From an uncultured Bdellovibrionales bacterium (GTDB lineage: Bacteria; Patescibacteriota; Minisyncoccia; Moranbacterales; UBA1568), in the NCBI GenBank assembly GCA_964537075.1, contig CAZIBB010000001.1, forward strand, positions 19,072 to 83,071: a stretch of DNA of 64,000 bases, read 5' to 3'. The translations under genes and the position numbers were made by a program. This document shows, in pieces, positions 4,012-64,000 of the stretch. Below the pieces are notes generated by a model. The model was not told where the DNA came from and did not search any database. It was given only the letters and a program-made list of their open reading frames with translations. Numbering within the stretch: the stretch's first letter is position 1; each line of letters starts with the position of its first letter.

Positions 4012-4051
4012 TTTTGGAGGCTAAACCTCCATGGAGGTTTAGCCTCCAAAA
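4012..4051. repeat. REP-like perfect palindrome TTTTGGAGGCTAAACCTCCATGGAGGTTTAGCCTCCAAAA flanking the transposase 3' end
   Basis: The 32-nt core GGAGGCTAAACCTCC-ATGG-AGGTTTAGCCTCC is its own reverse complement. It abuts the transposase stop codon at 4052-4054. Confidence 0.9.
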
Positions 4052-4711
4052 TTATTCCATCAACAAAGCTCTTTCAATCTGCTTTCTTTCTAAAATTCCA
4101 ATTAGGGAACTCTCTGAAAAATCTTTGTATTCCTCTTGACTGCGGAATTGTCCAAGTACAATATTTTTTTCACAATATTCGCGCTTTGTTTTTCCGATAT
4201 ATTCATTCCAACTTGAACGAGTAAGAATATCATCTTCATATCGATGCACACGAAAATTCAGATTTACATACGCACTCAAGTGCAATAAATATTCATTCGT
4301 TTCAATATGAATTGCCTTGAATGTTCCCTGGAACAGCGAGCCGCTTCGTGTATACTTTTTATTGAAATACATCGTGTATCCTGTACCAAATCGCTGCATA
4401 AACTTCTCCACCCCCTTATCTGAAACCTGCCTAAGAATAAAATGGAAATGATTCGGATTAATGCAGTATGCAATAACCTCAACCAACGGCTCTTCCTTTT
4501 CTTCATCCTTTATAACTACCTTTCCAAAACTTTTTTCATGAGATTTTTTTTCATAAATACTCCCTATAGGATTGAGTGTATTAAATTCAACCATGCTCTG
4601 CAGAAACCTCTCTGCATCAGTCACATCTTCTATAATCATTCTCTTTTCCACTCCACGATTATAAATATGATATACCTCCTCATTTGCAAATATCACTTTT
4701 CTCATAAGCAT
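4052..4711 (-). CDS. REP-associated tyrosine transposase (RAYT; Y1 HUH, IS200-like Y1_Tnp family)
   Basis: N-terminal YHIYNRG, HUH motif NPNHFHFIL, and a GSLFQGTFKAIHIE block comparable to the GxLWQxRYY region of Y1 transposases. The ORF track starts at 4756, inside the palindrome; the likely true start is M at 4711 or 4705 (MLMRKV...). Confidence 0.75.
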   Translation of the reverse strand: MLMRKVIFANEEVYHIYNRGVEKRMIIEDVTDAERFLQSMVEFNTLNPIGSIYEKKSHEKSFGKVVIKDEEKEEPLVEVIAYCINPNHFHFILRQVSDKGVEKFMQRFGTGYTMYFNKKYTRSGSLFQGTFKAIHIETNEYLLHLSAYVNLNFRVHRYEDDILTRSSWNEYIGKTKREYCEKNIVLGQFRSQEEYKDFSESSLIGILERKQIERALLME

Positions 4712-4719
4712 TGACGTTA

Positions 4720-4756
4720 TTTGGAGGCTAAACCTCCATGGAGGTTTAGCCTCCAC
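4720..4756. repeat. REP-like palindrome, second copy, flanking the transposase 5' end
   Basis: TTTGGAGGCTAAACCTCCATGGAGGTTTAGCCTCC, identical core to 4012..4051. Confidence 0.9.
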
Positions 4757-4764
4757 GATTTCAG

Positions 4765-5837: not shown

Positions 5838-5975
5838 ACGAGGAAAACACAAAAAATCAAACCACAAAAATCCAGACAAAGCACAGATATACAAAACACA
5901 AACTATACAAGGCTCTCGATTTTTTGTTTGGCATTTTGTGTTCTGAGCTTTGTGCTTTCAAAAAAATTTATCTTA
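5838..5975. repeat. CA-rich/TG-rich long inverted repeat, copy 1, with conserved core TTTGTTTGGCATTTTGTGTTCTGAGCTTTGTGCTTT
   Basis: ACAAAGCACAGATATACAAAACACAAA is followed by its approximate reverse complement. It lies 5' of the ABC ATPase gene; the core is shared with 6973..7135 and 62411..62563. Confidence 0.7.
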
Positions 5976-6972: not shown

Positions 6973-7135
6973 GATTCGTATTAAAACACAATAATCAAAG
7001 CACAAAGACCAAACAAATCACAAAACACAGGAGCCAAAAAGCATCTTACACAAAGAGATTTGTTTGTGTTTTGAATTTTGTGTTTTGTTTGACATTTTGT
7101 GTTCTGGGTTTTGTGTTTTTTAAAACAAGTTTGAT
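6973..7135. repeat. CA/TG inverted repeat, copy 2 (core TGTTTTGTTTGACATTTTGTGTTCTGGGTTTTGTGTTTTTT)
   Basis: Same architecture as copy 1, 5' of the HlyD gene. Confidence 0.7.
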
Positions 7136-12588: not shown

Positions 12589-12640
12589 AGTTTGAAGAAG
12601 AGTTTAGAGGAGAGAGATGAGAGTTTAGGAATTTTTATAA

Positions 12641-12664
12641 CGCCTGCCTGCCGGTAGGCAGGCG
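12641..12664. repeat. GC-rich palindrome CGCCTGCCTGCC-GGTA-GGCAGGCAGGCG
   Basis: Perfect 10-bp arms. Same family as 36323..36345 and 37421..37444. Confidence 0.85.
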
Positions 12665-15496: not shown

Positions 15497-15690
15497 TCCA
15501 GTATGATCCTTCGGGGCTCCGCGCGAAAAGAATCGCCAGAAATTCGTGACACCCAAAAGGATAGGTGCTCCAACTGGAGGAAGTGAAACGCCTTTGGAGC
15601 ATCCATACGGCGTGTCACTGAATTTCTCGATTCTTGTCGCAGGAGAGAGTTTCTTTGGCATACTTTTCTTTGCGGACAAAGAAAAGTATG
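15497..15690. repeat. Structured about 190-nt element, copy A (candidate ncRNA or palindromic MITE)
   Basis: Matches the reverse complement of 27371..27585. It folds into a long interrupted helix (AAGAATCG/CGATTCTT, AGAAATTC/GAATTTCT, GTGACAC/GTGTCAC) plus a perfect 10-bp terminal hairpin CTTTTCTTTG-CGGA-CAAAGAAAAG. Confidence 0.6.
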
Positions 15691-15743
15691 GAGAAATATT
15701 TTAAATAATTAGTTTTGAAAAGCTCATTGCCCCAACAGAAAAT

Positions 15744-22827: not shown

Positions 22828-22848
22828 AATGGTATATTCAACGTTTAG

Positions 22849-23036
22849 AATCTCTCTCAGATCTCACCGCAAAGATGAAAAAACAAAGACTTCTTCTGCT
22901 TGTCGCCTGAAATTCCATAATTTTGGCTGCAAATCCTGAAAAGCTCGTCGGGTTATCATGATAGCCCTCCTCACTTTTTCAGAATTTTCGCTCAAACTGA
23001 TGGAATTTCATGCCCGACATGAGATTTGAGAGAGAC
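22849..23036. mobile_element. MITE-like element, copy i (TIR flavour TCTCTCTCAGATCTCA / TGAGATTTGAGAGAGA)
   Basis: Terminal inverted repeats of 16 bp. The internal core CTGCTTGTCG..GGCTGCAAATCCTGAAAAGCTCGTCGGGTTATCATGATAGCCCTCCTCAC..TTTTCGCTC is shared with 41837..42018, 56352..56532 and 63832..64000. Confidence 0.8.
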
Positions 23037-23732
23037 TCTTTTAGAAATGCCTTTCCCGCGCCTCACGAGACAGAAAAGAAAGAGTGCCTCCGAAGCGAGG
23101 ATCTTGAATATCTCATAATCATCGAACTCATTCGATTTCTTCGGAAACACGATGAAGGCACGGAAATGATCCACGGCCTTCGGAGACGCCACCCGATAAT
23201 GATCATTTTCCAGCCAAAAATGACGTACTTTTTCATGAAGGAGAGATTCATGGGTAATATCTGAGAAAACACCTTTCTTCCCGCTCACGAAGGATCTCTC
23301 TATGCGGTGTTCCGTCGTATGTACGAAATATATGGCTACCGAATCAGCCTTGGAAAGAATCTTTACCGCATCGAGTATCGGCTGATACAGCTCATCGTCC
23401 TTGGCAGTCCGACCGAATGTGGCGAGCGTCCCCGGAAGCGCCCCAACTGACCGCTTGAGGATTTCGAATTTCCGGTTGAGTTCACCAATATATGAATACG
23501 AGCTCTCAAGATCCTTGAAAATGATATTTTTCTCTTGTCGTATTTTTTTTTGTTCCCCGCGTATTTTTCTGAGAGCGCGCTCTTTCGCGAGGTACAGAAG
23601 AAATCCTATCAAGGAAAGGAAAAAGATAAACAATGATTCCGCGTCATCCTCACTCAAAAAGAAATATCCCTGCCGAATATACTCCGGTGAGAATACCATG
23701 AGAACGAAAATAGTGAGGTATATCCAATACAC
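22992..23732 (-). CDS. Hypothetical membrane protein; its last 15 or so codons come from the MITE
   Basis: 246 aa. Two N-terminal TM helices. The C-terminus ...KRVSLKSHVGHEIPSV lies inside MITE copy i. Confidence 0.4.
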   Translation of the reverse strand: MYWIYLTIFVLMVFSPEYIRQGYFFLSEDDAESLFIFFLSLIGFLLYLAKERALRKIRGEQKKIRQEKNIIFKDLESSYSYIGELNRKFEILKRSVGALPGTLATFGRTAKDDELYQPILDAVKILSKADSVAIYFVHTTEHRIERSFVSGKKGVFSDITHESLLHEKVRHFWLENDHYRVASPKAVDHFRAFIVFPKKSNEFDDYEIFKILASEALFLFCLVRRGKGISKRVSLKSHVGHEIPSV

Positions 23733-25490: not shown

Positions 25491-25532
25491 TTTTTGGAGG
25501 TCGAACCTCCATGGAGGTTCGACCTCCAAAAA
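25491..25532. repeat. REP-like palindrome, third (orphan) copy, variant GGAGGTCGAACCTCC-ATGG-AGGTTCGACCTCC
   Basis: Same GGAGG...CCTCC-ATGG-GGAGG...CCTCC architecture as the copies flanking the transposase. The loop change CTAAA to TCGAA is mirrored symmetrically in the other half. Confidence 0.85.
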
Positions 25533-26774
25533 TTACTTATACAACGGAAACTGCTTGCATAACACTCGTATATCCTTACGCAACTTGTTACGTAACTTCG
25601 CATCGCCTTTATTCTTCCAGGCGGTATCGATGATACGGGCGATTTCCTTCACTTCACGCTCTTTCATCCCGCGTGTCGTGATCGCTGGAACGCCGATACG
25701 CACCCCACTCGGATCGAGCGGCCCGCGCGGATCATCCGGAATGACATTCTTATTGATGGTGATCCCCACTTCCTCCAATATATATTCCGCTTCCTTTCCA
25801 GTGAGGCCATAGCTCTTCACCGTATCGATCACGATCATATGATTCTCCGTTCCACCGAAGAGAATATACGCGCCGCCCTTATAGAGTTCCTTTTCGAGCA
25901 CCTTCGCATTTTTCAGTGTCTGTTTCGCGTACTTCCTGAACTCTGGTTTCAATGCCTCACCGAATGCCACCGCTTTGGCCGCCACGACGTGCATGTGTGG
26001 CCCTCCCTGCGTTCCCGGGAAAATAGCCTTGTCAATCGCCCTTGCAAATTCTTTCTTGCAGAGAATCATGCCTCCACGCGGTCCGCGCAGCGTCTTGTGC
26101 GTCGTCGCTGTCACGATATCGAAGTGCGGCACCGGACTCGGCAGCGCTTTCCCGGCGATGAGTCCCGCGATATGCGCCATGTCCATCATGGTCAATGCCT
26201 TCACCTTCTTTGCAATCGCGACGAACAACGCATAATCAATCTGCCGGGTATATGAAGAGAATCCCGCGAGCATGAGCTTCGGTTTTTCTTTTCTCGCAAG
26301 CGCTTCCAATTTTTTATAATCGATGCTGCCATCAGGTTCGGTTTTGTACCGAACGAAATTATACACCTTGGCCGGCAAGGTCACCGGATGACCATGCGTC
26401 AGATGTCCGCCATGAGAGAGATCCATGCCGAGCACCGTATCGCCCGGCTGAAGGAGTGCTGCATATACAGCGAGATTCGCCTGCGCCCCCGAATGCGCCT
26501 GCACATTCGCATGTTCCGCTCCGAACAATTTCTTCACGCGATCGAGCGCGAGCGTTTCCGCGACATCCGTCCATTCCTGTCCGCCATAGTACCTTTTCCC
26601 CGGATACCCTTCGGAATATTTGTTCGTGAAGACCGTCCCGAGCGTTTCCATCACCGCCTGCGAGACATAATTCTCCGACGCGATCATTTCCAATCCTTCT
26701 TCCTGCCGTTTTTCTTCGCCCATCACCGCGGCATACACCGCCTTGTCCGCCTTCTTCAGAATATCATGCTTCAT
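25533..26774 (-). CDS. glyA: Serine hydroxymethyltransferase
   Basis: PLP site [12 protein letters not shown] and the GHLTHGH block; 413 aa. Confidence 0.9.
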
Positions 26775-27370: not shown

Positions 27371-27585
27371 TCTTTCATACTTTTCTTTGTCCGCAAAGAA
27401 AAGTAGACAAAAGAAACTCTCTCCTGCGAACAAATCGATAAATTCTTCGACACCCTTATGGAAGCCTCCAAAGGCGCTTCACTTCCTCCAGTTGGAGCTT
27501 CTGTCCTTTTTGGGTGTCGAGAATTTCTAGCGATTCTTTTCGCGCGGAGCCCACGCAGGACCAAGTTTAGAGAAAATAATAAAGG
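27371..27585. repeat. Structured about 190-nt element, copy B (inverted orientation relative to copy A)
   Basis: Reverse complement aligns with 15497..15690. Helix positions carry compensatory changes: GTGACAC/GTGTCAC in A against TCGACAC/GTGTCGA in B. Confidence 0.6.
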
Positions 27586-37344: not shown

Positions 37345-37466
37345 AATTTCGAATTTCGAATTTTTAATTTCGAGTGAATTCTAAATGACTTCATATTTCA
37401 ATCATTCAAAAACTCATCATTCCTGCCTGCCGGCAGGCAGGGATTCAAAATTCGAAATTCGAAATT
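37345..37466. mobile_element. 122-bp mini-element with perfect 20-nt terminal inverted repeats (AATTTCGAATTTCGAATTTT) enclosing a CCTGCCTGCC-GGCAGGCAGG palindrome
   Basis: Left arm 37345-37364, right arm 37447-37466 (exact reverse complement). Internal palindrome 37421-37444. It fills the mraZ-rsmH spacer. Confidence 0.6.
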
Positions 37467-41797: not shown

Positions 41798-41836
41798 AGC
41801 GATCGAGTATATAAAAATCCTATTATTCCCTCCATA

Positions 41837-42018
41837 AGAGCCTGTTGAAAAATCCACCGCCTGTGATATAGAGATCTGCTTGTCGGCTATAATCTCAGAA
41901 TTTCGGCTGCAAATCCTGAAAAGCTCGTCGGGGTATCATGATAGCCCTCCTCACCTGTTCAGAATTTTCGCTCGAAATTCTGAAATTATAACTCGACATG
42001 ACTTTTTCAACAGGCTCT
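41837..42018. mobile_element. MITE-like element, copy ii (TIR flavour AGAGCCTGTTGAAAAA / TTTTTCAACAGGCTCT)
   Basis: 182 bp with perfect 16-17-bp terminal inverted repeats and the same core as copy i. Confidence 0.8.
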
Positions 42019-42044
42019 GAGACATTCTATTCTAACAACTTTTC

Positions 42045-46942: not shown

Positions 46943-48694
46943 CTACTCTTTCGTCGCGCGGAGGATTTCTTCGATGGAGGTCATGCCGATCACGCATTTC
47001 GCGAAACCGTCCTCCACCATGGTCGCCATATGATTCTCATATCGGGCGGCCTTCTCGATGTCTTCGGTCGTGGCCGCTTGAGAGATAAGTTTGCGGATAT
47101 TACTTTCCATTTCGAGCACCTCATAGACGCCGCCGCGGCCGCGATACCCTTCGCCGCCGCACTGATCACAGCTTCCCGGCTGATAAAAGTCAATATCATC
47201 CCAATTCTTCACCTTCGCCATATATTTCACCGTCTCCTTGTGTTTCTTGAGAAAAGTCATCAGTGCATCAATATCATAATTTCTCCCCAGGGCCTCGATC
47301 TGTTTCGCGTCCAATCGATAGGGTTTGCGACACTCCGGACACAAACGCCTCACGAGACGCTGTGCGATGATCACGTTCACGGTCGAAGCGATGAGGAATG
47401 GTTCCGCACCCATATCAAGCATGCGAGGAAGCGTAGCGGCCGCGCTATTGGTATGAAGGGTCGAAAGTACAAGGTGTCCGGTCATCGCGGCATGCATCGC
47501 GATTTCAAGCGTTTCATTATCGCGGATTTCACCGACCATGATGATATCCGGATCCTGACGAAGAAGCGCCCGGAGCCCAGCCGCGAAGGTCATCCCTACT
47601 TTCGAATTGATCTGCGTCTGATTCACCCGTGGCATGCGATATTCCACCGGATCCTCGACGGTGCTCACATTCACTTCGGGAGTATTGAGGATATCCATCG
47701 CGGTGTAGAGCGTCGTCGTTTTTCCGGAACCGGTCGGTCCGGTCACAAGAATCATCCCGTTCGGCTTATTCATCTGGCGCTGTACCGCCTCAAGCGCATC
47801 TTCCGAAATACCCATTTTTTCCAAAGTAAGTCCGCTTGACGTTTCATCGAGCAAACGCATCACCACTTTTTCCCCATCGAAAATTGGGAGAATACTGACA
47901 CGAAAAGAAATCTTGTACTCGTCCTTCGCGATCTTGAATCGTCCATCCTGTGGCACGCGATGTTCGTCGAGCTTGAGATTGGAGAGCACCTTGATACGAG
48001 CCACGATTCCCGCAGCGGTATCTTTCGGAAGTGACATCGCATCATGAAGCACTCCGTCGATACGGTATCTGACATGCACTTCCTTCTCATCCGGTTCGAT
48101 ATGGATGTCCGATGCCTTCTGGAGAATAGCGTGCTTGAGGAGGGTATCCACCACACGGATGATCGGGAGATCAGCCGCGACTTTTTCCAGATTATCCCCG
48201 GGAGAGACATCCTCATCCTTCTTCACGCCATCCGTCAGAATATCTCCGAATTCCGCCTCCAAACTCCGACCATATTGACGGAGAATGACCTGAATACTCT
48301 CTTTCGTGGTAAGACATGGGATGATCTTCAGCCCCGTTTTTTTCTTGATGAAATCGATGGTCTGCAGGTCGTCCGGACTGAGCATCGCCACCTTCAGGTT
48401 CATTCCCACCTTTTCAAAGGAAACGATATTTGATTTCTTCGCAATAAGCTCAGGAATGATCTGCAGAATCTCCTCCGGTACCGCCTGCTTGGAAAGATCC
48501 ACAAACGGGATGCCGAGCACATAGGCATAGACTTTCTGCAAATCCGCCTCCGATATGAGCTCCTTTTCAAACAGTGCCTTTCCGAAGTCTTTTTGACTCT
48601 TGGTCACCTCGTCGAACACCACTTCCAAATCCTCCTTCTTCACCAGATTGGAATCAAGAAGAAATTCCTTCAATTGAGCATTACTAACATGCAT
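46943..48694 (-). CDS. pilB: Type IV pilus assembly ATPase PilB (GspE family)
   Basis: GSPII_E N-domain, Walker A GPTGSGKTTTLY, Asp/His boxes, tetracysteine CPECRKP...CDQCGG. Confidence 0.9.
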   Translation of the reverse strand: MHVSNAQLKEFLLDSNLVKKEDLEVVFDEVTKSQKDFGKALFEKELISEADLQKVYAYVLGIPFVDLSKQAVPEEILQIIPELIAKKSNIVSFEKVGMNLKVAMLSPDDLQTIDFIKKKTGLKIIPCLTTKESIQVILRQYGRSLEAEFGDILTDGVKKDEDVSPGDNLEKVAADLPIIRVVDTLLKHAILQKASDIHIEPDEKEVHVRYRIDGVLHDAMSLPKDTAAGIVARIKVLSNLKLDEHRVPQDGRFKIAKDEYKISFRVSILPIFDGEKVVMRLLDETSSGLTLEKMGISEDALEAVQRQMNKPNGMILVTGPTGSGKTTTLYTAMDILNTPEVNVSTVEDPVEYRMPRVNQTQINSKVGMTFAAGLRALLRQDPDIIMVGEIRDNETLEIAMHAAMTGHLVLSTLHTNSAAATLPRMLDMGAEPFLIASTVNVIIAQRLVRRLCPECRKPYRLDAKQIEALGRNYDIDALMTFLKKHKETVKYMAKVKNWDDIDFYQPGSCDQCGGEGYRGRGGVYEVLEMESNIRKLISQAATTEDIEKAARYENHMATMVEDGFAKCVIGMTSIEEILRATKE

Positions 48695-48864
48695 AGTATT
48701 TTTCTTTGTATTCTTTGTATTGTTTCTATTATACAACAAAAGCGTAAAAATAGAGAAAAAACAACGCAGGAAGCAAATCCTGCGTTGATTGATCATATTC
48801 ACCGCTTCTCTTTTCTCTACTCTGCCTTCTATTTCCTCACCTCTATCCTCTTCTCTCTTCTCCT

Positions 48865-56338: not shown

Positions 56339-56351
56339 AGTCTTTCCTCTT

Positions 56352-56532
56352 AGAGCCTGTTGAAAAATCCACCGCCTGTCAAAAAAGATATGCTTGTCGG
56401 CTTACATTCCAGAATTTCGGCTGCAAACCCCTCAAAGCTCGTCGGAATATCCCGATATTCCTCCTCACTTTTCACGGTTTTCGCTCGAAATTCTGGAATG
56501 TAACGCTCGACATGGCTTTTTCAACAGGCTCT
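56352..56532. mobile_element. MITE-like element, copy iii (AGAGCCTGTTGAAAAA flavour)
   Basis: 181 bp with perfect terminal inverted repeats. Its end abuts the pilO stop codon. Confidence 0.8.
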
Positions 56533-57248
56533 TAATCCTTGGTATAGACGACGATACTGAAAAAAGCTTGTACTAATTTTTTCGCGACCGGTTGCTCCGA
56601 AACGGAAGCAGTACCATCTGAAAATATCGGGTTATTGGTTACAAACGCACTGCCGCGCGACACGCCAGAATCACTTGGTTCCCATTGCCGTATATCAAGC
56701 GACACCACATCGATCGAATAAGACAATGACTCCAACTGATGCAAGAATTGAGCTACCTTCGCATACTCTCCCCGAACATCGAGGCGAAGCGACATATACT
56801 GATCAAACGGCAGATTCTTGAGAATACTTTCGTCTTTCTTCTTTTCCGTATTACTACTGCTTTCATCACTTAATTTGTCGGCATTTTTTGGGGCGGTGAC
56901 CTTGTTCTTCAGCGCCTGATCCTGATTCGTGATACTAATCTCCACATCATTACCATGAGCCAATAATTCGATACTTTCGATAAACGGTACCACCTGATCA
57001 TGACTGACCAAGGTATCGAATTTCCCCTCGTCCTGAAGGATAAGGTCATACTGTTCCCTCAATTGCGGCAGTTCTTTCACTCGGTTCTCTTTGCTTTCTT
57101 GCAAGGCATGATTCGCTTCGATGGTATTCGCCTTCTCAACGATCAGTCTCTGAAAAGGGAAAATACCCCACTGGAAAAGAGCCGCAAAGAGAAGGAATGC
57201 CGTGGCAATGATTCCCAAGGGGATCCACTTGTGTATGGATGAGTTCAT
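56532..57248 (-). CDS. pilO: Type IV pilus assembly protein PilO
   Basis: N-terminal TM plus coiled coil, positioned after pilN. Confidence 0.55.
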   Translation of the reverse strand: MNSSIHKWIPLGIIATAFLLFAALFQWGIFPFQRLIVEKANTIEANHALQESKENRVKELPQLREQYDLILQDEGKFDTLVSHDQVVPFIESIELLAHGNDVEISITNQDQALKNKVTAPKNADKLSDESSSNTEKKKDESILKNLPFDQYMSLRLDVRGEYAKVAQFLHQLESLSYSIDVVSLDIRQWEPSDSGVSRGSAFVTNNPIFSDGTASVSEQPVAKKLVQAFFSIVVYTKD

Positions 57249-62410: not shown

Positions 62411-62563
62411 ATTTCTTCAAAAAACACAGTCTCCAAAGCACAGAAATCAAACAAAACACAGTATTTAAAAACACAAAACTCAAACCAAGAAAGAGAGAGT
62501 TTGTGCTTTTATTATTCTGCATTGTGTTTTGTTTGGCATTTTGTGTTTTCTATTTTGTGCTTT
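62411..62563. repeat. CA/TG inverted repeat, copy 3 (core TGTGTTTTGTTTGGCATTTTGTGTTTTCTATTTTGTGCTTTTT)
   Basis: Between the pilC stop and the pilin gene start; same conserved core as copies 1 and 2. Confidence 0.7.
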
Positions 62564-63784
62564 TTACTTGATATTCTCCAATACGGAGTACATCGGAGTG
62601 AGCATCGCCACTGCGAAAAATCCCACGCCGCTTCCGATGAACAGCATGAGAATCGGTTCCAGGATGGAAGACATGTTCTTCGTGATCTGATCCACCTCTC
62701 CCTCATAAAAATCCGCCAGCCGGGCAAGGACGGTCTCGGTTTTCCCTGTCTCTTCTCCTACTTCAATGATCTGTGGTACGAGAATCGGGAAAATTTTCGG
62801 ATAGCGCCGGATAACCACGCTCATTTCCACACCTTTCTGAATCTCATTGAGCGCCTCGGTCAACGCGTCACGGTAGTATACGTTCGAGAGCGTTTTCATC
62901 ACGATAGAAAGACCGTCCACCACCGATACGCCGGATCGGAGCAAAGAACTGTAAATGCGGGCGAAACGCGCGCAGTTCACCTTGATGATGATATTTCCAA
63001 TGATTGGCAGGGAGAGAAAAAGCCAATCGAACCAGCGCTTGCCGAACGGCTGGCTATAAAGAAATTTGATGCCTACGACGAGTCCGATACACAGGCCGAT
63101 GACGATGAAATAGTGTGCGATCAAAAAATCGGAGATTCCCATGATGAACAGGGTTGATTTCGGAAGCGCCACATCCATATCTTTGAACACGCCGGTAATC
63201 TTCGGCAAAATATAGGTAAGCATCAGAACGGCGATACCGATCATCGCTATAAAAATCACCGCCGGATATATCAGGGCGCCACGAACCTTGGATGTCAAAT
63301 CATTTTCCTTCTCCAGCTGGATAGCGAGGATTTCAAGCACTTCCTCGAGATTGCCGCTCACCTCACCCACATTGATCATGTTGACGAAGAGCTCGTTAAA
63401 CACCGTCGGAAACTTCGCCAACCCCTCCGAGAGGGTGAGACCCGCCTGCAGATCATCATGTACCGACACGAGAATCTTCCGGAAGGATTTATTATTCGTC
63501 TGTTCGCTCAAGTTCGATACCGCGCGGGAAATAGTGAGTCCCGAAGAGACCATCACCGCGAGGTTTCTCGTGAAAATCATTTTTTCCTTCAACGGGATGG
63601 AGACGAAGCGATCGAAAAATTTCACGCTTGCCTTTTTTTCATCCGGCTGAAGCGATTTCAACGAAGTGACCAGCCACCCTTCCGCCCGCAGATTTTTCGC
63701 CACGTCCTGGTCGCTTTTGGCCTCGATCTCACCACCGCGCGTCTCGCCGGTCGCAATATTTCTCGCCGTATAGATAAACTTCAT
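62564..63784 (-). CDS. pilC: Type IV pilus inner-membrane platform protein PilC (GspF family)
   Basis: Two T2SSF repeats (...LSEGLAKFPTVFNELFVNMINVGEVSGNL...); 406 aa. Confidence 0.9.
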   Translation of the reverse strand: MKFIYTARNIATGETRGGEIEAKSDQDVAKNLRAEGWLVTSLKSLQPDEKKASVKFFDRFVSIPLKEKMIFTRNLAVMVSSGLTISRAVSNLSEQTNNKSFRKILVSVHDDLQAGLTLSEGLAKFPTVFNELFVNMINVGEVSGNLEEVLEILAIQLEKENDLTSKVRGALIYPAVIFIAMIGIAVLMLTYILPKITGVFKDMDVALPKSTLFIMGISDFLIAHYFIVIGLCIGLVVGIKFLYSQPFGKRWFDWLFLSLPIIGNIIIKVNCARFARIYSSLLRSGVSVVDGLSIVMKTLSNVYYRDALTEALNEIQKGVEMSVVIRRYPKIFPILVPQIIEVGEETGKTETVLARLADFYEGEVDQITKNMSSILEPILMLFIGSGVGFFAVAMLTPMYSVLENIK

Positions 63785-63831
63785 ACACGTTCTTTATTTT
63801 TCTTTTTTTGGTACACGAAATTCCATAAGTA

Positions 63832-64000
63832 TCTCTCTCAAATCTCACCGCATGAGATAAAAAAACAAAGATTTCTCCTGCTTGTCGGCTAAAATTTCAT
63901 CATTTCGGCTGCAAATCTCGAAAATCTCGTCGGAATATCCAGATATTCCTCCCTGCCCGAAATGCTACGCATGCCGTTGCAGGCGGGCTCACTTTTCAAA
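63832..64000. mobile_element. MITE-like element, copy iv (TCTCTCTCAAATCTCA flavour), truncated by the window end
   Basis: Begins TCTCTCTCAAATCTCACCGCATGAGAT...CTGCTTGTCGGCT...GGCTGCAAATCTCGAAAATCTCGTCGG. Same core as copies i to iii. Confidence 0.7.

What the first reader, a model, noticed from the sequence alone, without database searches (positions are those of the whole stretch)
22849..23036. Family of about 182-bp MITE-like elements: four copies in 64 kb, two terminal-inverted-repeat flavours around one conserved core
Copies at 22849-23036, 41837-42018, 56352-56532 and 63832-end share an internal core: CTGCTTGTCGGCT...TTTCGGCTGCAAATCCTGAAAAGCTCGTCGG..TATCATGATAGCCCTCCTCAC...TTTTCGCTC. Copies i and iv end in TCTCTCTCA(A/G)ATCTCA / TGAGATTTGAGAGAGA. 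Copies ii and iii end in AGAGCCTGTTGAAAAA / TTTTTCAACAGGCTCT. All are intergenic and encode no protein. Two termini sets on one core suggest either two mobilising transposases or a conserved functional core such as a small RNA or protein-binding site that has picked up different ends. The core contains a plausible RNA hairpin (GCTGCAAATCC...).
Basis: seen in the sequence. Interest (0 to 1): 0.75.

Follow-up and report, generated by a model that had tools for sequence, protein, structure and literature searches.

The report
Hairpin MITE family in Moranbacteria genomes
The four repeats are copies of a small non-coding jumping element (a MITE with insertion-sequence-like ends) that is widespread in the tiny genomes of Moranbacteria-type bacteria, often lands exactly on stop codons, and keeps a conserved rod-like hairpin fold on one strand for reasons not yet known.

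Summary
Four copies of a ~180–191-nt element lie at 22848–23038, 41838–42017, 56353–56531 and 63829–end. All are in one orientation and their flanks are unrelated.

It is a MITE. Copy 3 is flanked by a perfect TTA/TTA duplication. Four orthologous loci carry only "TAA + 10 nt + ATG" at that site, which is a clean empty site. Across 86 distinct copies from 18 species genomes and 80 metagenome contigs, 19 have perfect 3-bp duplications, and all are TTA or TAA. The ends (GAGCCTGTCTAAAATCT) match the published IS5-family/IS1031-group inverted repeat (GAACCTGTCTAGTATCT, 3-bp TNA duplication) at up to 14/17 positions. No transposase gene was found.

The "two terminal-repeat flavours" are two of dozens of variants of a 20-bp terminal stem that co-varies. 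The whole element is one hairpin: 93.7% of pair cells are paired and 49 of 56 pairs show compensatory changes. The fold is strand-specific (G·U 266 versus A·C 61; tandem G·A loops), yet orientation to host genes is random. That polarity is unexplained.

Copies often abut stop codons, and some sit inside 23S rRNA genes.

Verdict: a new member of a known kind, of moderate interest.

The parts
22848..23038 (-). MITE copy 1, long form, 191 nt. Ends are GAATCTCTCTCAGATCTCA / TGAGATTTGAGAGAGACTC. Flanks are TTA (22845–22847) and TTT (23039–23041), a degraded duplication. The last 16 codons and the stop of minus-strand ORF 22992..23732 lie inside it.
   Evidence: 164.5 bits, E 1.7e-32; ORF.
41838..42017 (-). 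MITE copy 2, 180 nt. Ends are GAGCCTGTTGAAAAA / TTTTTCAACAGGCTC. Flanks are TAA (41835–41837) and TGA (42018–42020), a 2/3 match. It lies 40 nt upstream of the M17 aminopeptidase start (41797).
   Evidence: 171.8 bits. Orthologous M17 loci L114–L116 lack it.
56353..56531 (-). MITE copy 3, 179 nt, with a perfect 3-bp target-site duplication: TTA at 56350–56352 and 56532–56534 (TAA on the gene strand). The 56532–56534 copy is the stop codon of the upstream 238-aa gene. The other copy is followed by GAGGAAAGACT and then the ATG of the 106-aa gene.
   Evidence: 178.6 bits; −91.4 kcal/mol, z −11.7. Empty sites in L121/L122/L124/L125.
63829..64000 (-). MITE copy 4, truncated by the window end. Its left end GTATCTCTCTCAAATCTCA is preceded by TAA (63826–63828). 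It lies 44 nt upstream of the T2SSF/PilC-like gene start (63784). A 35-nt nested insertion (63953–63987) interrupts the GGAGG/CCTCC box.
   Evidence: 48.6 bits, cut at the 5' end of the model.
56419..56445 (+). Example of the invariant core box (GGCTGCAAA-N6-AAA-N-CTCGTCGG) used to recover the family. The same box lies at 22925–22951, 41905–41931 and 63907–63933.

Best explanation
The four repeats are copies of a non-autonomous DNA transposon (MITE) family that is widespread in Candidatus Moraniibacteriota and neighbouring Parcubacteria.

Shown:
- The element has no ORF and is bounded by G...C.
- It duplicates a 3-bp TWA target (TTA/TAA, usually followed by G).
- It is present or absent at orthologous sites.
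- Its ends resemble the inverted repeats of IS5-family/IS1031-group insertion sequences, which also make 3-bp TNA duplications.

Inferred:
- It is mobilised in trans by an IS1031-like DDE transposase. None was found.

Shown:
- Because the target is TAA/TTA and the element starts with G (recreating TAA or TAG), many copies sit exactly on the stop codon of the neighbouring gene. The stop, and the next gene's ribosome-binding site, stay intact.

Inferred:
- This placement is why the element is tolerated in very compact genomes.

Shown:
- The whole element folds into one ~180-nt rod: a 20-bp terminal stem, inner stems, and conserved internal loops that include two tandem G·A boxes.
- The pairing is maintained by abundant compensatory change, so the 'two terminal-repeat flavours' are just two stem variants.
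- The window copies are recombinant mosaics.
- The fold is favoured on one strand (the gene strand in this window).

Inferred, weakly:
- When co-transcribed, the element acts as a stable RNA hairpin, that is, a double-strand-specific RNase or stability element, as shown for Correia and ERIC elements.
- Something in the element's own propagation reads the folded single strand.
For: - Copies: 31 true hits in 18 species-representative genomes. There are 90 distinct high-scoring copies.
- Duplications: 19 of 86 copies have a perfect 3-bp direct repeat. All are TTA (11) or TAA (8). Permutation gives a mean of 3.1 and a maximum of 9 in 1000. Concordant versus discordant is 19:3.
- Empty sites: window copy 3 against L121/L122/L124/L125 (GGAT-TAA-10 nt-ATG). 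L063 against L048, L097 against window ~48700, and L066 against L062. The M17 locus also lacks the element in relatives.
- Ends: ISLrh (IS1031 group) has the inverted repeat GAACCTGTCTAGTATCT and a 3-bp TNA duplication (PMC12016507). IS1237 has a TTA/TAA duplication (PMC2516522). Element ends match at up to 14/17. 46 of 174 ends match at 11/17 or better, against none in 20,000 interior controls.
- Stop codons: 14 of 36 long ORFs that approach an end stop at offset −3 or −2.
- Fold: 93.7% of cells are paired against 71% when shuffled. 49 of 56 pairs carry double-sided changes. The covariation score is 0.594 against 0.175 shuffled and at most 0.11 for slid partners.
- Polarity.
- Mosaic structure of the window copies.
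Against: - No transposase gene with matching ends was found in 0.9 Mb of loci or among the window ORFs tested.
- Terminal repeats differ greatly between copies that all carry fresh duplications, even on one 5-kb contig (L040). One sequence-specific transposase would not be expected to accept all of them.
- The strand-specific fold is not a normal MITE requirement. It is also not explained by host transcription: orientation is 18 sense to 20 antisense, with equal pairing quality in both classes.
- Short-form copies rarely show TWA duplications (3 of 50). They are merely bracketed by TA...TA.
- G·U counts are not corrected for shared ancestry.
Confidence: 0.85

Rival explanations
1. The repeats are a family of stand-alone structured non-coding RNA genes, or a cis-regulatory leader, kept by the host and not mobile.
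For: There is very strong covariation. The fold is strand-specific, with G·U pairs and tandem G·A loops. The core is conserved across distant lineages. All five copies in rRNA operons are in the sense orientation.
Against: The copies carry TWA target-site duplications and have clean empty sites. Orientation to flanking genes is random. No portable promoter or terminator was seen, and no fixed neighbouring gene. Nothing matches in Rfam even at E ≤ 10. Density reaches 3 copies in 2.4 kb (L041).
Confidence: 0.05
2. The element moves as a folded single strand and is recognised by shape rather than sequence. This would resemble integron attC sites, IS200/IS605 ends or REP/RAYT, using a tyrosine or HUH enzyme rather than a DDE transposase.
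For: Stem sequence is free while pairing is kept. The internal loops are conserved. One strand is favoured in 89–90 of 90 copies, also with DNA energy parameters. The polarity is independent of host transcription. Very different ends are all recently mobile.
Against: A 3-bp duplication of TWA and IS1031-like terminal sequence are the signature of IS5-family DDE transposition. attC and IS200/IS605 mechanisms make no such duplication. There are no attC R'/R'' boxes, no cassette array, and no integrase or HUH gene nearby.
Confidence: 0.07
3. The repeats are host-generated palindromic spacers (terminator- or REP-like), or the pairing is maintained only by mutational palindrome correction (template switching), with no selection on structure.
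For: The copies are long palindromes in AT-rich intergenic DNA. The window copies are mosaic, which shows exchange between copies.
Against: Asymmetric internal loops and bulges are conserved in nearly all 90 copies, whereas correction would erase them. The G·U over A·C bias is not expected from symmetric correction. Duplications and empty sites show insertion.
Confidence: 0.03

Closest known systems
IS5 family, IS1031 group insertion sequences (e.g. ISLrh, IS1031; also IS1237)
   Same: Ends begin with GA(A/G)CCTGT...ATCT. They make a 3-bp duplication of TNA (here TTA/TAA). Source: PMC12016507 and PMC2516522, compared.
   Different: The element has no transposase ORFs and is 160–200 nt rather than ~850–950 bp. 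The interior is a conserved hairpin. Many copies have ends that share only the first G and a few other positions with the IS1031 repeat.
Correia elements (CREE/NEMIS) of Neisseria
   Same: Short (100–160 bp). Several terminal-repeat subtypes surround a common core. Dispersed in intergenic DNA and co-transcribed as hairpins. RNase III cleavage at the terminal repeats is reported (review PMC10969869). My recollection is that no cognate transposase is known for them.
   Different: The sequence is unrelated. The duplication is TA rather than TWA (from my own knowledge). The host is Proteobacteria rather than CPR. No comparable conserved loop set or strand polarity is reported, to my knowledge.
ERIC/IRU, YPAL, BOX/RUP and bcr1 intergenic repeats
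   Same: Imperfect palindromes of 100–170 nt lying between genes in either orientation. They give stable RNA folds, and ERIC has orientation-dependent effects on mRNA (PMC10969869). Compensatory changes are reported for ERIC and bcr (my own knowledge).
   Different: The sequences and hosts are different. Here the duplication, the stop-codon placement and the insertion-sequence-family affinity are all explicit.
Tourist-type MITEs / PIF-Harbinger superfamily (eukaryotes)
   Same: A TWA 3-bp duplication and transposases related to IS5 (from my own knowledge).
   Different: These are eukaryotic and have no sequence relation to this family.
Intervening sequences of bacterial 23S rRNA
   Same: Some short-form copies lie inside 23S rRNA genes in the sense orientation as extended stem-loops, and are absent in a close relative.
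   Different: Classical intervening sequences sit in helices 25 and 45 and are defined by RNase III excision (my own knowledge). Excision was not tested here.

Membership tests
Prokaryotic MITE | Short (under about 500 bp) with no transposase or conserved ORF | tested here: met
   Copies are 159–206 nt. A small ORF behind the GGAGG box exists only in copies 1 and 2 and a few others and is not conserved (read from the sequences).
Prokaryotic MITE | Terminal inverted repeats | tested here: met
   Near-perfect terminal stems of 16–22 bp occur in 87 of 96 distinct copies.
Prokaryotic MITE | Target-site duplication of fixed length | tested here: met
   3-bp TTA/TAA in 19 of 86 copies (16 of 36 long forms). 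Permutation maximum is 9 in 1000. Concordant versus discordant is 19:3. For short forms the result is unclear.
Prokaryotic MITE | Many dispersed copies with unrelated flanks | tested here: met
   4 copies in 64 kb here and up to 3 in 2.4 kb elsewhere. Found in 18 species genomes and 80 or more metagenome contigs.
Prokaryotic MITE | Presence/absence at orthologous sites | tested here: met
   Clean empty site for window copy 3. Further empty sites.
Prokaryotic MITE | Cognate autonomous insertion sequence with the same ends in the same genomes | tested here: inconclusive
   None was found in 0.9 Mb of fetched loci or in the window. Whole genomes could not be scanned.
IS5 family / IS1031 group derivative | 3-bp duplication at TNA | tested here: met
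   compared with PMC12016507.
IS5 family / IS1031 group derivative | Inverted repeat of GAG/GAA...CCTGT type | tested here: met
   Up to 14/17 identity to the ISLrh repeat. 46 of 174 ends match at 11/17 or better, against 0 of 20,000 controls. The GTATCTC and GTAACTG flavours match less well (12/17 or below).
IS5 family / IS1031 group derivative | Mobilised by a DDE transposase of that group | not testable with these tools
   No transposase was recovered, and mobilisation needs an experiment.
Described structured RNA family (Rfam 15) | Match to a curated covariance model | tested here: not met
   No hit at gathering score in the window. Nothing overlaps the element at E ≤ 10 except a chance miRNA hit of 11 bits.
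Integron attC site | R''/R' core sites, arrays of short cassettes in one orientation next to intI | tested here: not met
   Copies are 7–19 kb apart between housekeeping genes. Orientation is random across loci. Duplications are present.
IS200/IS605-type or REP/RAYT single-strand elements | Subterminal hairpins, no terminal inverted repeats, no target duplication | tested here: not met
   Terminal inverted repeats and TWA duplications are present.

The most novel reading that the evidence does not exclude
The conserved, strand-specific rod is the functional unit, not a by-product of being a palindromic MITE. It comprises tandem G·A loops, an excess of G·U pairs, and stems that are free in sequence but must pair. 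There are two versions of this reading.

(a) The element is mobilised through a folded single-stranded intermediate that is recognised by shape. This would explain why very different ends are all mobile.

(b) The element is a mobile structured-RNA module that transposition spreads through compact CPR genomes. It could be a protein-binding or processing cassette. This version includes copies in 23S rRNA genes, where it would behave as an intervening sequence.
Probability: 0.2. Interest if true: 0.75.

Novelty: new member of a known kind. Interest (0 to 1): 0.45.

Why it matters
CPR/Patescibacteria genomes are tiny and are usually described as poor in mobile DNA. I found no paper on MITEs in this group in the held library. 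This family reaches one copy per few kilobases.

It shows how such an element can survive in a gene-dense genome. It lands on TAA/TTA and rebuilds the stop codon. It also breaks metagenome assemblies, since several copies lie at contig ends. It contributes to the unusual insertions in CPR rRNA genes.

The family also gives a large, clean covariation data set for an uncharacterised strand-specific fold. That fold could mark a new RNA-level or single-strand-level step in MITE biology.

Tried and rejected
- **Rfam.** Searching at gathering and at permissive thresholds found no family.
- **Leader or riboswitch upstream of genes.** Rejected. The 4/4 co-orientation in the window reflects a one-strand gene region. 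Across loci orientation is 18 sense to 20 antisense.
- **Own promoter.** Sigma-70-like boxes sit next to some copies. The clear case (L012, L018, L019, L022, L033) is a 40-nt add-on module found only there, and it reads into the less stable strand. No conserved internal promoter was seen by eye.
- **Conserved small ORF behind the GGAGG box.** Not conserved.
- **Autonomous partner.** Three searches found nothing convincing: inverted-repeat pairs 0.4–4 kb apart with TWA flanks, relaxed GRRYCYR end pairs, and an IS5-type YREK motif in all six frames of 0.9 Mb. Pfam on the window ORFs tested showed no transposase.
- **Viral contigs.** No copy.
- **Source contig.** Look-up failed for the 100%-identical M17 protein. 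The M17 locus gave only a messy empty site. The PilO-like gene gave the clean one.
- **Host-transcript selection as the cause of strand polarity.** Rejected. Sense and antisense copies are equally paired and equally poor in A·C.

Full report
**1. Observation**

Repeat detection recovers them as the two largest direct-repeat families of the window. The 27-nt core pattern occurs four times, all on the + strand, with none expected in shuffles. Neither nhmmer nor a covariance model finds a fifth copy in the window.

Refined ends are 22848–23038, 41838–42017, 56353–56531 and 63829 to the window end. Flanks are unrelated. The window is a CPR-type bacterial chromosome. Its markers include DUF4012, GT4, a type IV pilus operon and an MraZ/division cluster, and nearly all genes lie on the minus strand. 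Close homologues of its proteins are labelled Candidatus Moraniibacteriota.

**2. Distribution**

One exact-pattern scan of species-representative genomes gave 33 loci. Of these, 31 are true copies in 18 assemblies, mostly Candidatus Moraniibacteriota plus a Staskawiczbacteria genome. Several genomes hold multiple copies and several copies lie at contig ends. No copy was found in viral contigs.

A covariance model finds 90 distinct high-scoring copies in the fetched DNA. Density reaches three copies in a 2.4-kb contig. There is a long form of ~180–200 nt, as in the window, and a short form of ~160 nt that lacks an AU-rich asymmetric bulge.

**3. The element is mobile**

Once each copy is bounded by its terminal G...C, 19 of 86 distinct copies are flanked by a perfect 3-bp direct repeat. 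All 19 are TTA (11) or TAA (8). Permuting the right flanks among copies gives a mean of 3.1 and a maximum of 9 in 1000 trials. Where both flanks are TWA, they agree 19 times and disagree 3 times. A palindrome extension would predict TTA paired with TAA, so these are duplications. The base after the right-hand repeat was G in 12 of 16 copies that I read by eye from the listings (target about TWAG).

Window copy 3 has a perfect TTA/TTA duplication. Its orthologous locus has the gene order PilM, PilN, a 240-aa gene, a 105-aa gene and a radical-SAM gene. In four contigs from two relatives that locus reads ...GGAT-TAA-GCTCTCTCCT-ATG.... The window reads ...GGAT-TAA-[179 nt]-TAA-GAGGAAAGACT-ATG....

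Further empty sites:
- L063 against L048, at two sites with 87–88% identity.
- L097 against the window near 48700.
- L066 against L062.

The M17 aminopeptidase locus of three relatives also lacks copy 2, but other indels make that comparison less clean.

**4. Which transposon type**

A published IS1031-group element of the IS5 family (ISLrh) has 17-bp inverted repeats GAACCTGTCTAGTATCT and makes 3-bp duplications at TNA (PMC12016507). IS1237 duplicates TTA/TAA (PMC2516522).

Element ends such as GAGCCTGTCTAAAATCT and GAACCTGTCTAATAAGT match the ISLrh repeat at 14/17. In total 46 of 174 ends match at 11/17 or better. No interior control reached 11 in 20,000 trials.

I therefore file the family as an IS5/IS1031-type MITE. 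This is an inference from the ends and the duplication. No transposase with matching ends was found in 0.9 Mb of loci or among the window ORFs tested.

**5. Placement**

Thirty-six long ORFs approach an element end within 40 nt. Fourteen of them stop exactly at the flanking TAA, or at the TAG formed by the duplication plus the element's first G.

The target is itself a stop codon or its reverse complement, and it is duplicated. Insertion between tightly packed genes therefore preserves the upstream stop and the downstream start region, as at copy 3. The idea that this explains tolerance in compact genomes is my inference.

Copy 1 is an exception. Its duplication is degraded and the upstream ORF now runs 16 codons into the element (and the sequence itself).

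**6. The two flavours and the fold**

Nearly every copy has a different ~20-bp terminal stem, and the two arms always match.

On the 90-copy alignment:
- 93.7% of 4947 pair cells are standard pairs, against 71% after shuffling.
- 49 of 56 pairs have changes on both sides.
- The covariation score is 0.594, against 0.175 when shuffled and at most 0.11 when partners are slid.

The alignment was fitted to the model, which favours the structure somewhat. An independent MAFFT/RNAalifold run gave the same picture.

Conserved sequence is concentrated in the internal loops: GAGCGAAAA opposite UUUGCAGCC, and UGAGGAG opposite CGACGAG. The second set forms two tandem G·A boxes. In the window, the ends group copies 1+4 and 2+3. 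The apex and core group copies 1+2 and 3+4. The copies are therefore mosaics.

**7. Strand polarity (unexplained)**

The strand that is the minus (gene) strand in the window folds better.
- The consensus energy is −68.6 against −41.9 kcal/mol.
- G·U cells number 266 against 61 A·C cells. G·U exceeds A·C in 35 columns, and the reverse holds in 7.
- In the terminal stem alone the count is 55 against 21.
- This strand is the more stable one in 89 of 90 copies with RNA parameters and in 90 of 90 with DNA parameters.

Yet orientation relative to co-directional flanking genes is 18 sense to 20 antisense. Sense and antisense copies are equally well paired and equally poor in A·C. The polarity therefore belongs to the element lineage. 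It does not come from selection on host transcripts after insertion.

These counts are not corrected for shared ancestry. I found no portable promoter. All copies seen inside or next to 23S rRNA genes (L063, L048) are in the sense orientation. That is five cases, one of which is a weak 42-bit match, and the sample is small.

**8. Mechanism**

Most likely (0.85) this is a cut-and-paste MITE of IS5/IS1031 type that targets TWA.

What the conserved rod does is not shown. By analogy with Correia and ERIC elements (PMC10969869), a co-transcribed hairpin that is processed by, or stabilises against, RNases is the conservative guess. The polarity leaves room for recognition of a single-stranded form during propagation.

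**9. Novelty**

MITEs with stable transcript folds are well known, so this is a new member of a known kind. I found no description of MITEs in CPR bacteria in the held literature, and Rfam has no model for the fold.

Noticed in passing
window 15514-15701 (+) and 27376-27552 (-); also L081 5893-6100: A second, unrelated ~180-nt repeat (78–94% identical). It starts GGGCTCCGCGCGAAAAGAATCG and ends in a terminator-like hairpin ATACTTTTCTTTGCGGACAAAGAAAAGTAT. There is no Rfam hit. It is a candidate structured RNA or leader.
   Followed up: partly
window 4013-4053, 4720-4760, 25493-25533; L022 flank: Near-perfect 36–41-nt palindromes TTTGGAGGCTAAACCTCCATGGAGGTTTAGCCTCCAAA recur in intergenic DNA. 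A related GGAGGTTTAGCCTCC...GGAGGCTCAACCTCC lies in another Moranbacteria genome.
   Followed up: no
window 12634-12662 and 37422-37450: Short palindromes of the CCTGCCTGCCGGCAGGCAGG type occur in two places. The nested insertion in copy 4 (63953–63987) also contains GCCTGC/GCAGGC-like arms.
   Followed up: no
L063 5544-5710 and 8956-9118; L048 2223-2386, 8409-8576: Short-form copies lie inside or directly next to 23S rRNA genes that also carry group I introns. All are in the rRNA sense orientation. The two L063 copies are absent at the same sites in L048. They may act as intervening sequences or expansion segments.
   Followed up: partly
window 63953-63987; L097 7390-7597; L005/L015: Some copies carry an extra 25–45-nt hairpin inserted inside the conserved core. 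In window copy 4 it splits the GGAGG/CCTCC box. These look like nested insertions of yet another small element.
   Followed up: no
L012 6749-6790, L018, L019, L022, L033: One sub-lineage carries a 40-nt add-on at one end with a near-consensus promoter (TTGACx-17 nt-TAAAAT). It reads through the element toward the next gene (DUF1016-like or RhuM-like). The add-on is found only attached to the element.
   Followed up: partly
window 22992-23038: The minus-strand ORF 22992..23732 (no Pfam hit) continues 16 codons into copy 1 before a stop. The element therefore supplies its C-terminus if the gene is real.
   Followed up: no
window 56339-56349 versus L121/L124: At the filled site the spacer before the 106-aa gene is GAGGAAAGACT, a good ribosome-binding site. 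The empty sites have GCTCTCTCCT, with no such site, and their genes are only 10 nt apart. This may be a compensating change after insertion, or simply divergence.
   Followed up: no
window about 48640-48790: This intergenic site is orthologous to the insertion site of the L097 copy and is empty in the window (78% identity across the junction).
   Followed up: partly
window 5917-5961, 7064-7122, 62508-62566: T/G-rich repeats (TTGTGTTTTGTTTGGCATTTTGTGTT...) recur in three intergenic places.
   Followed up: no
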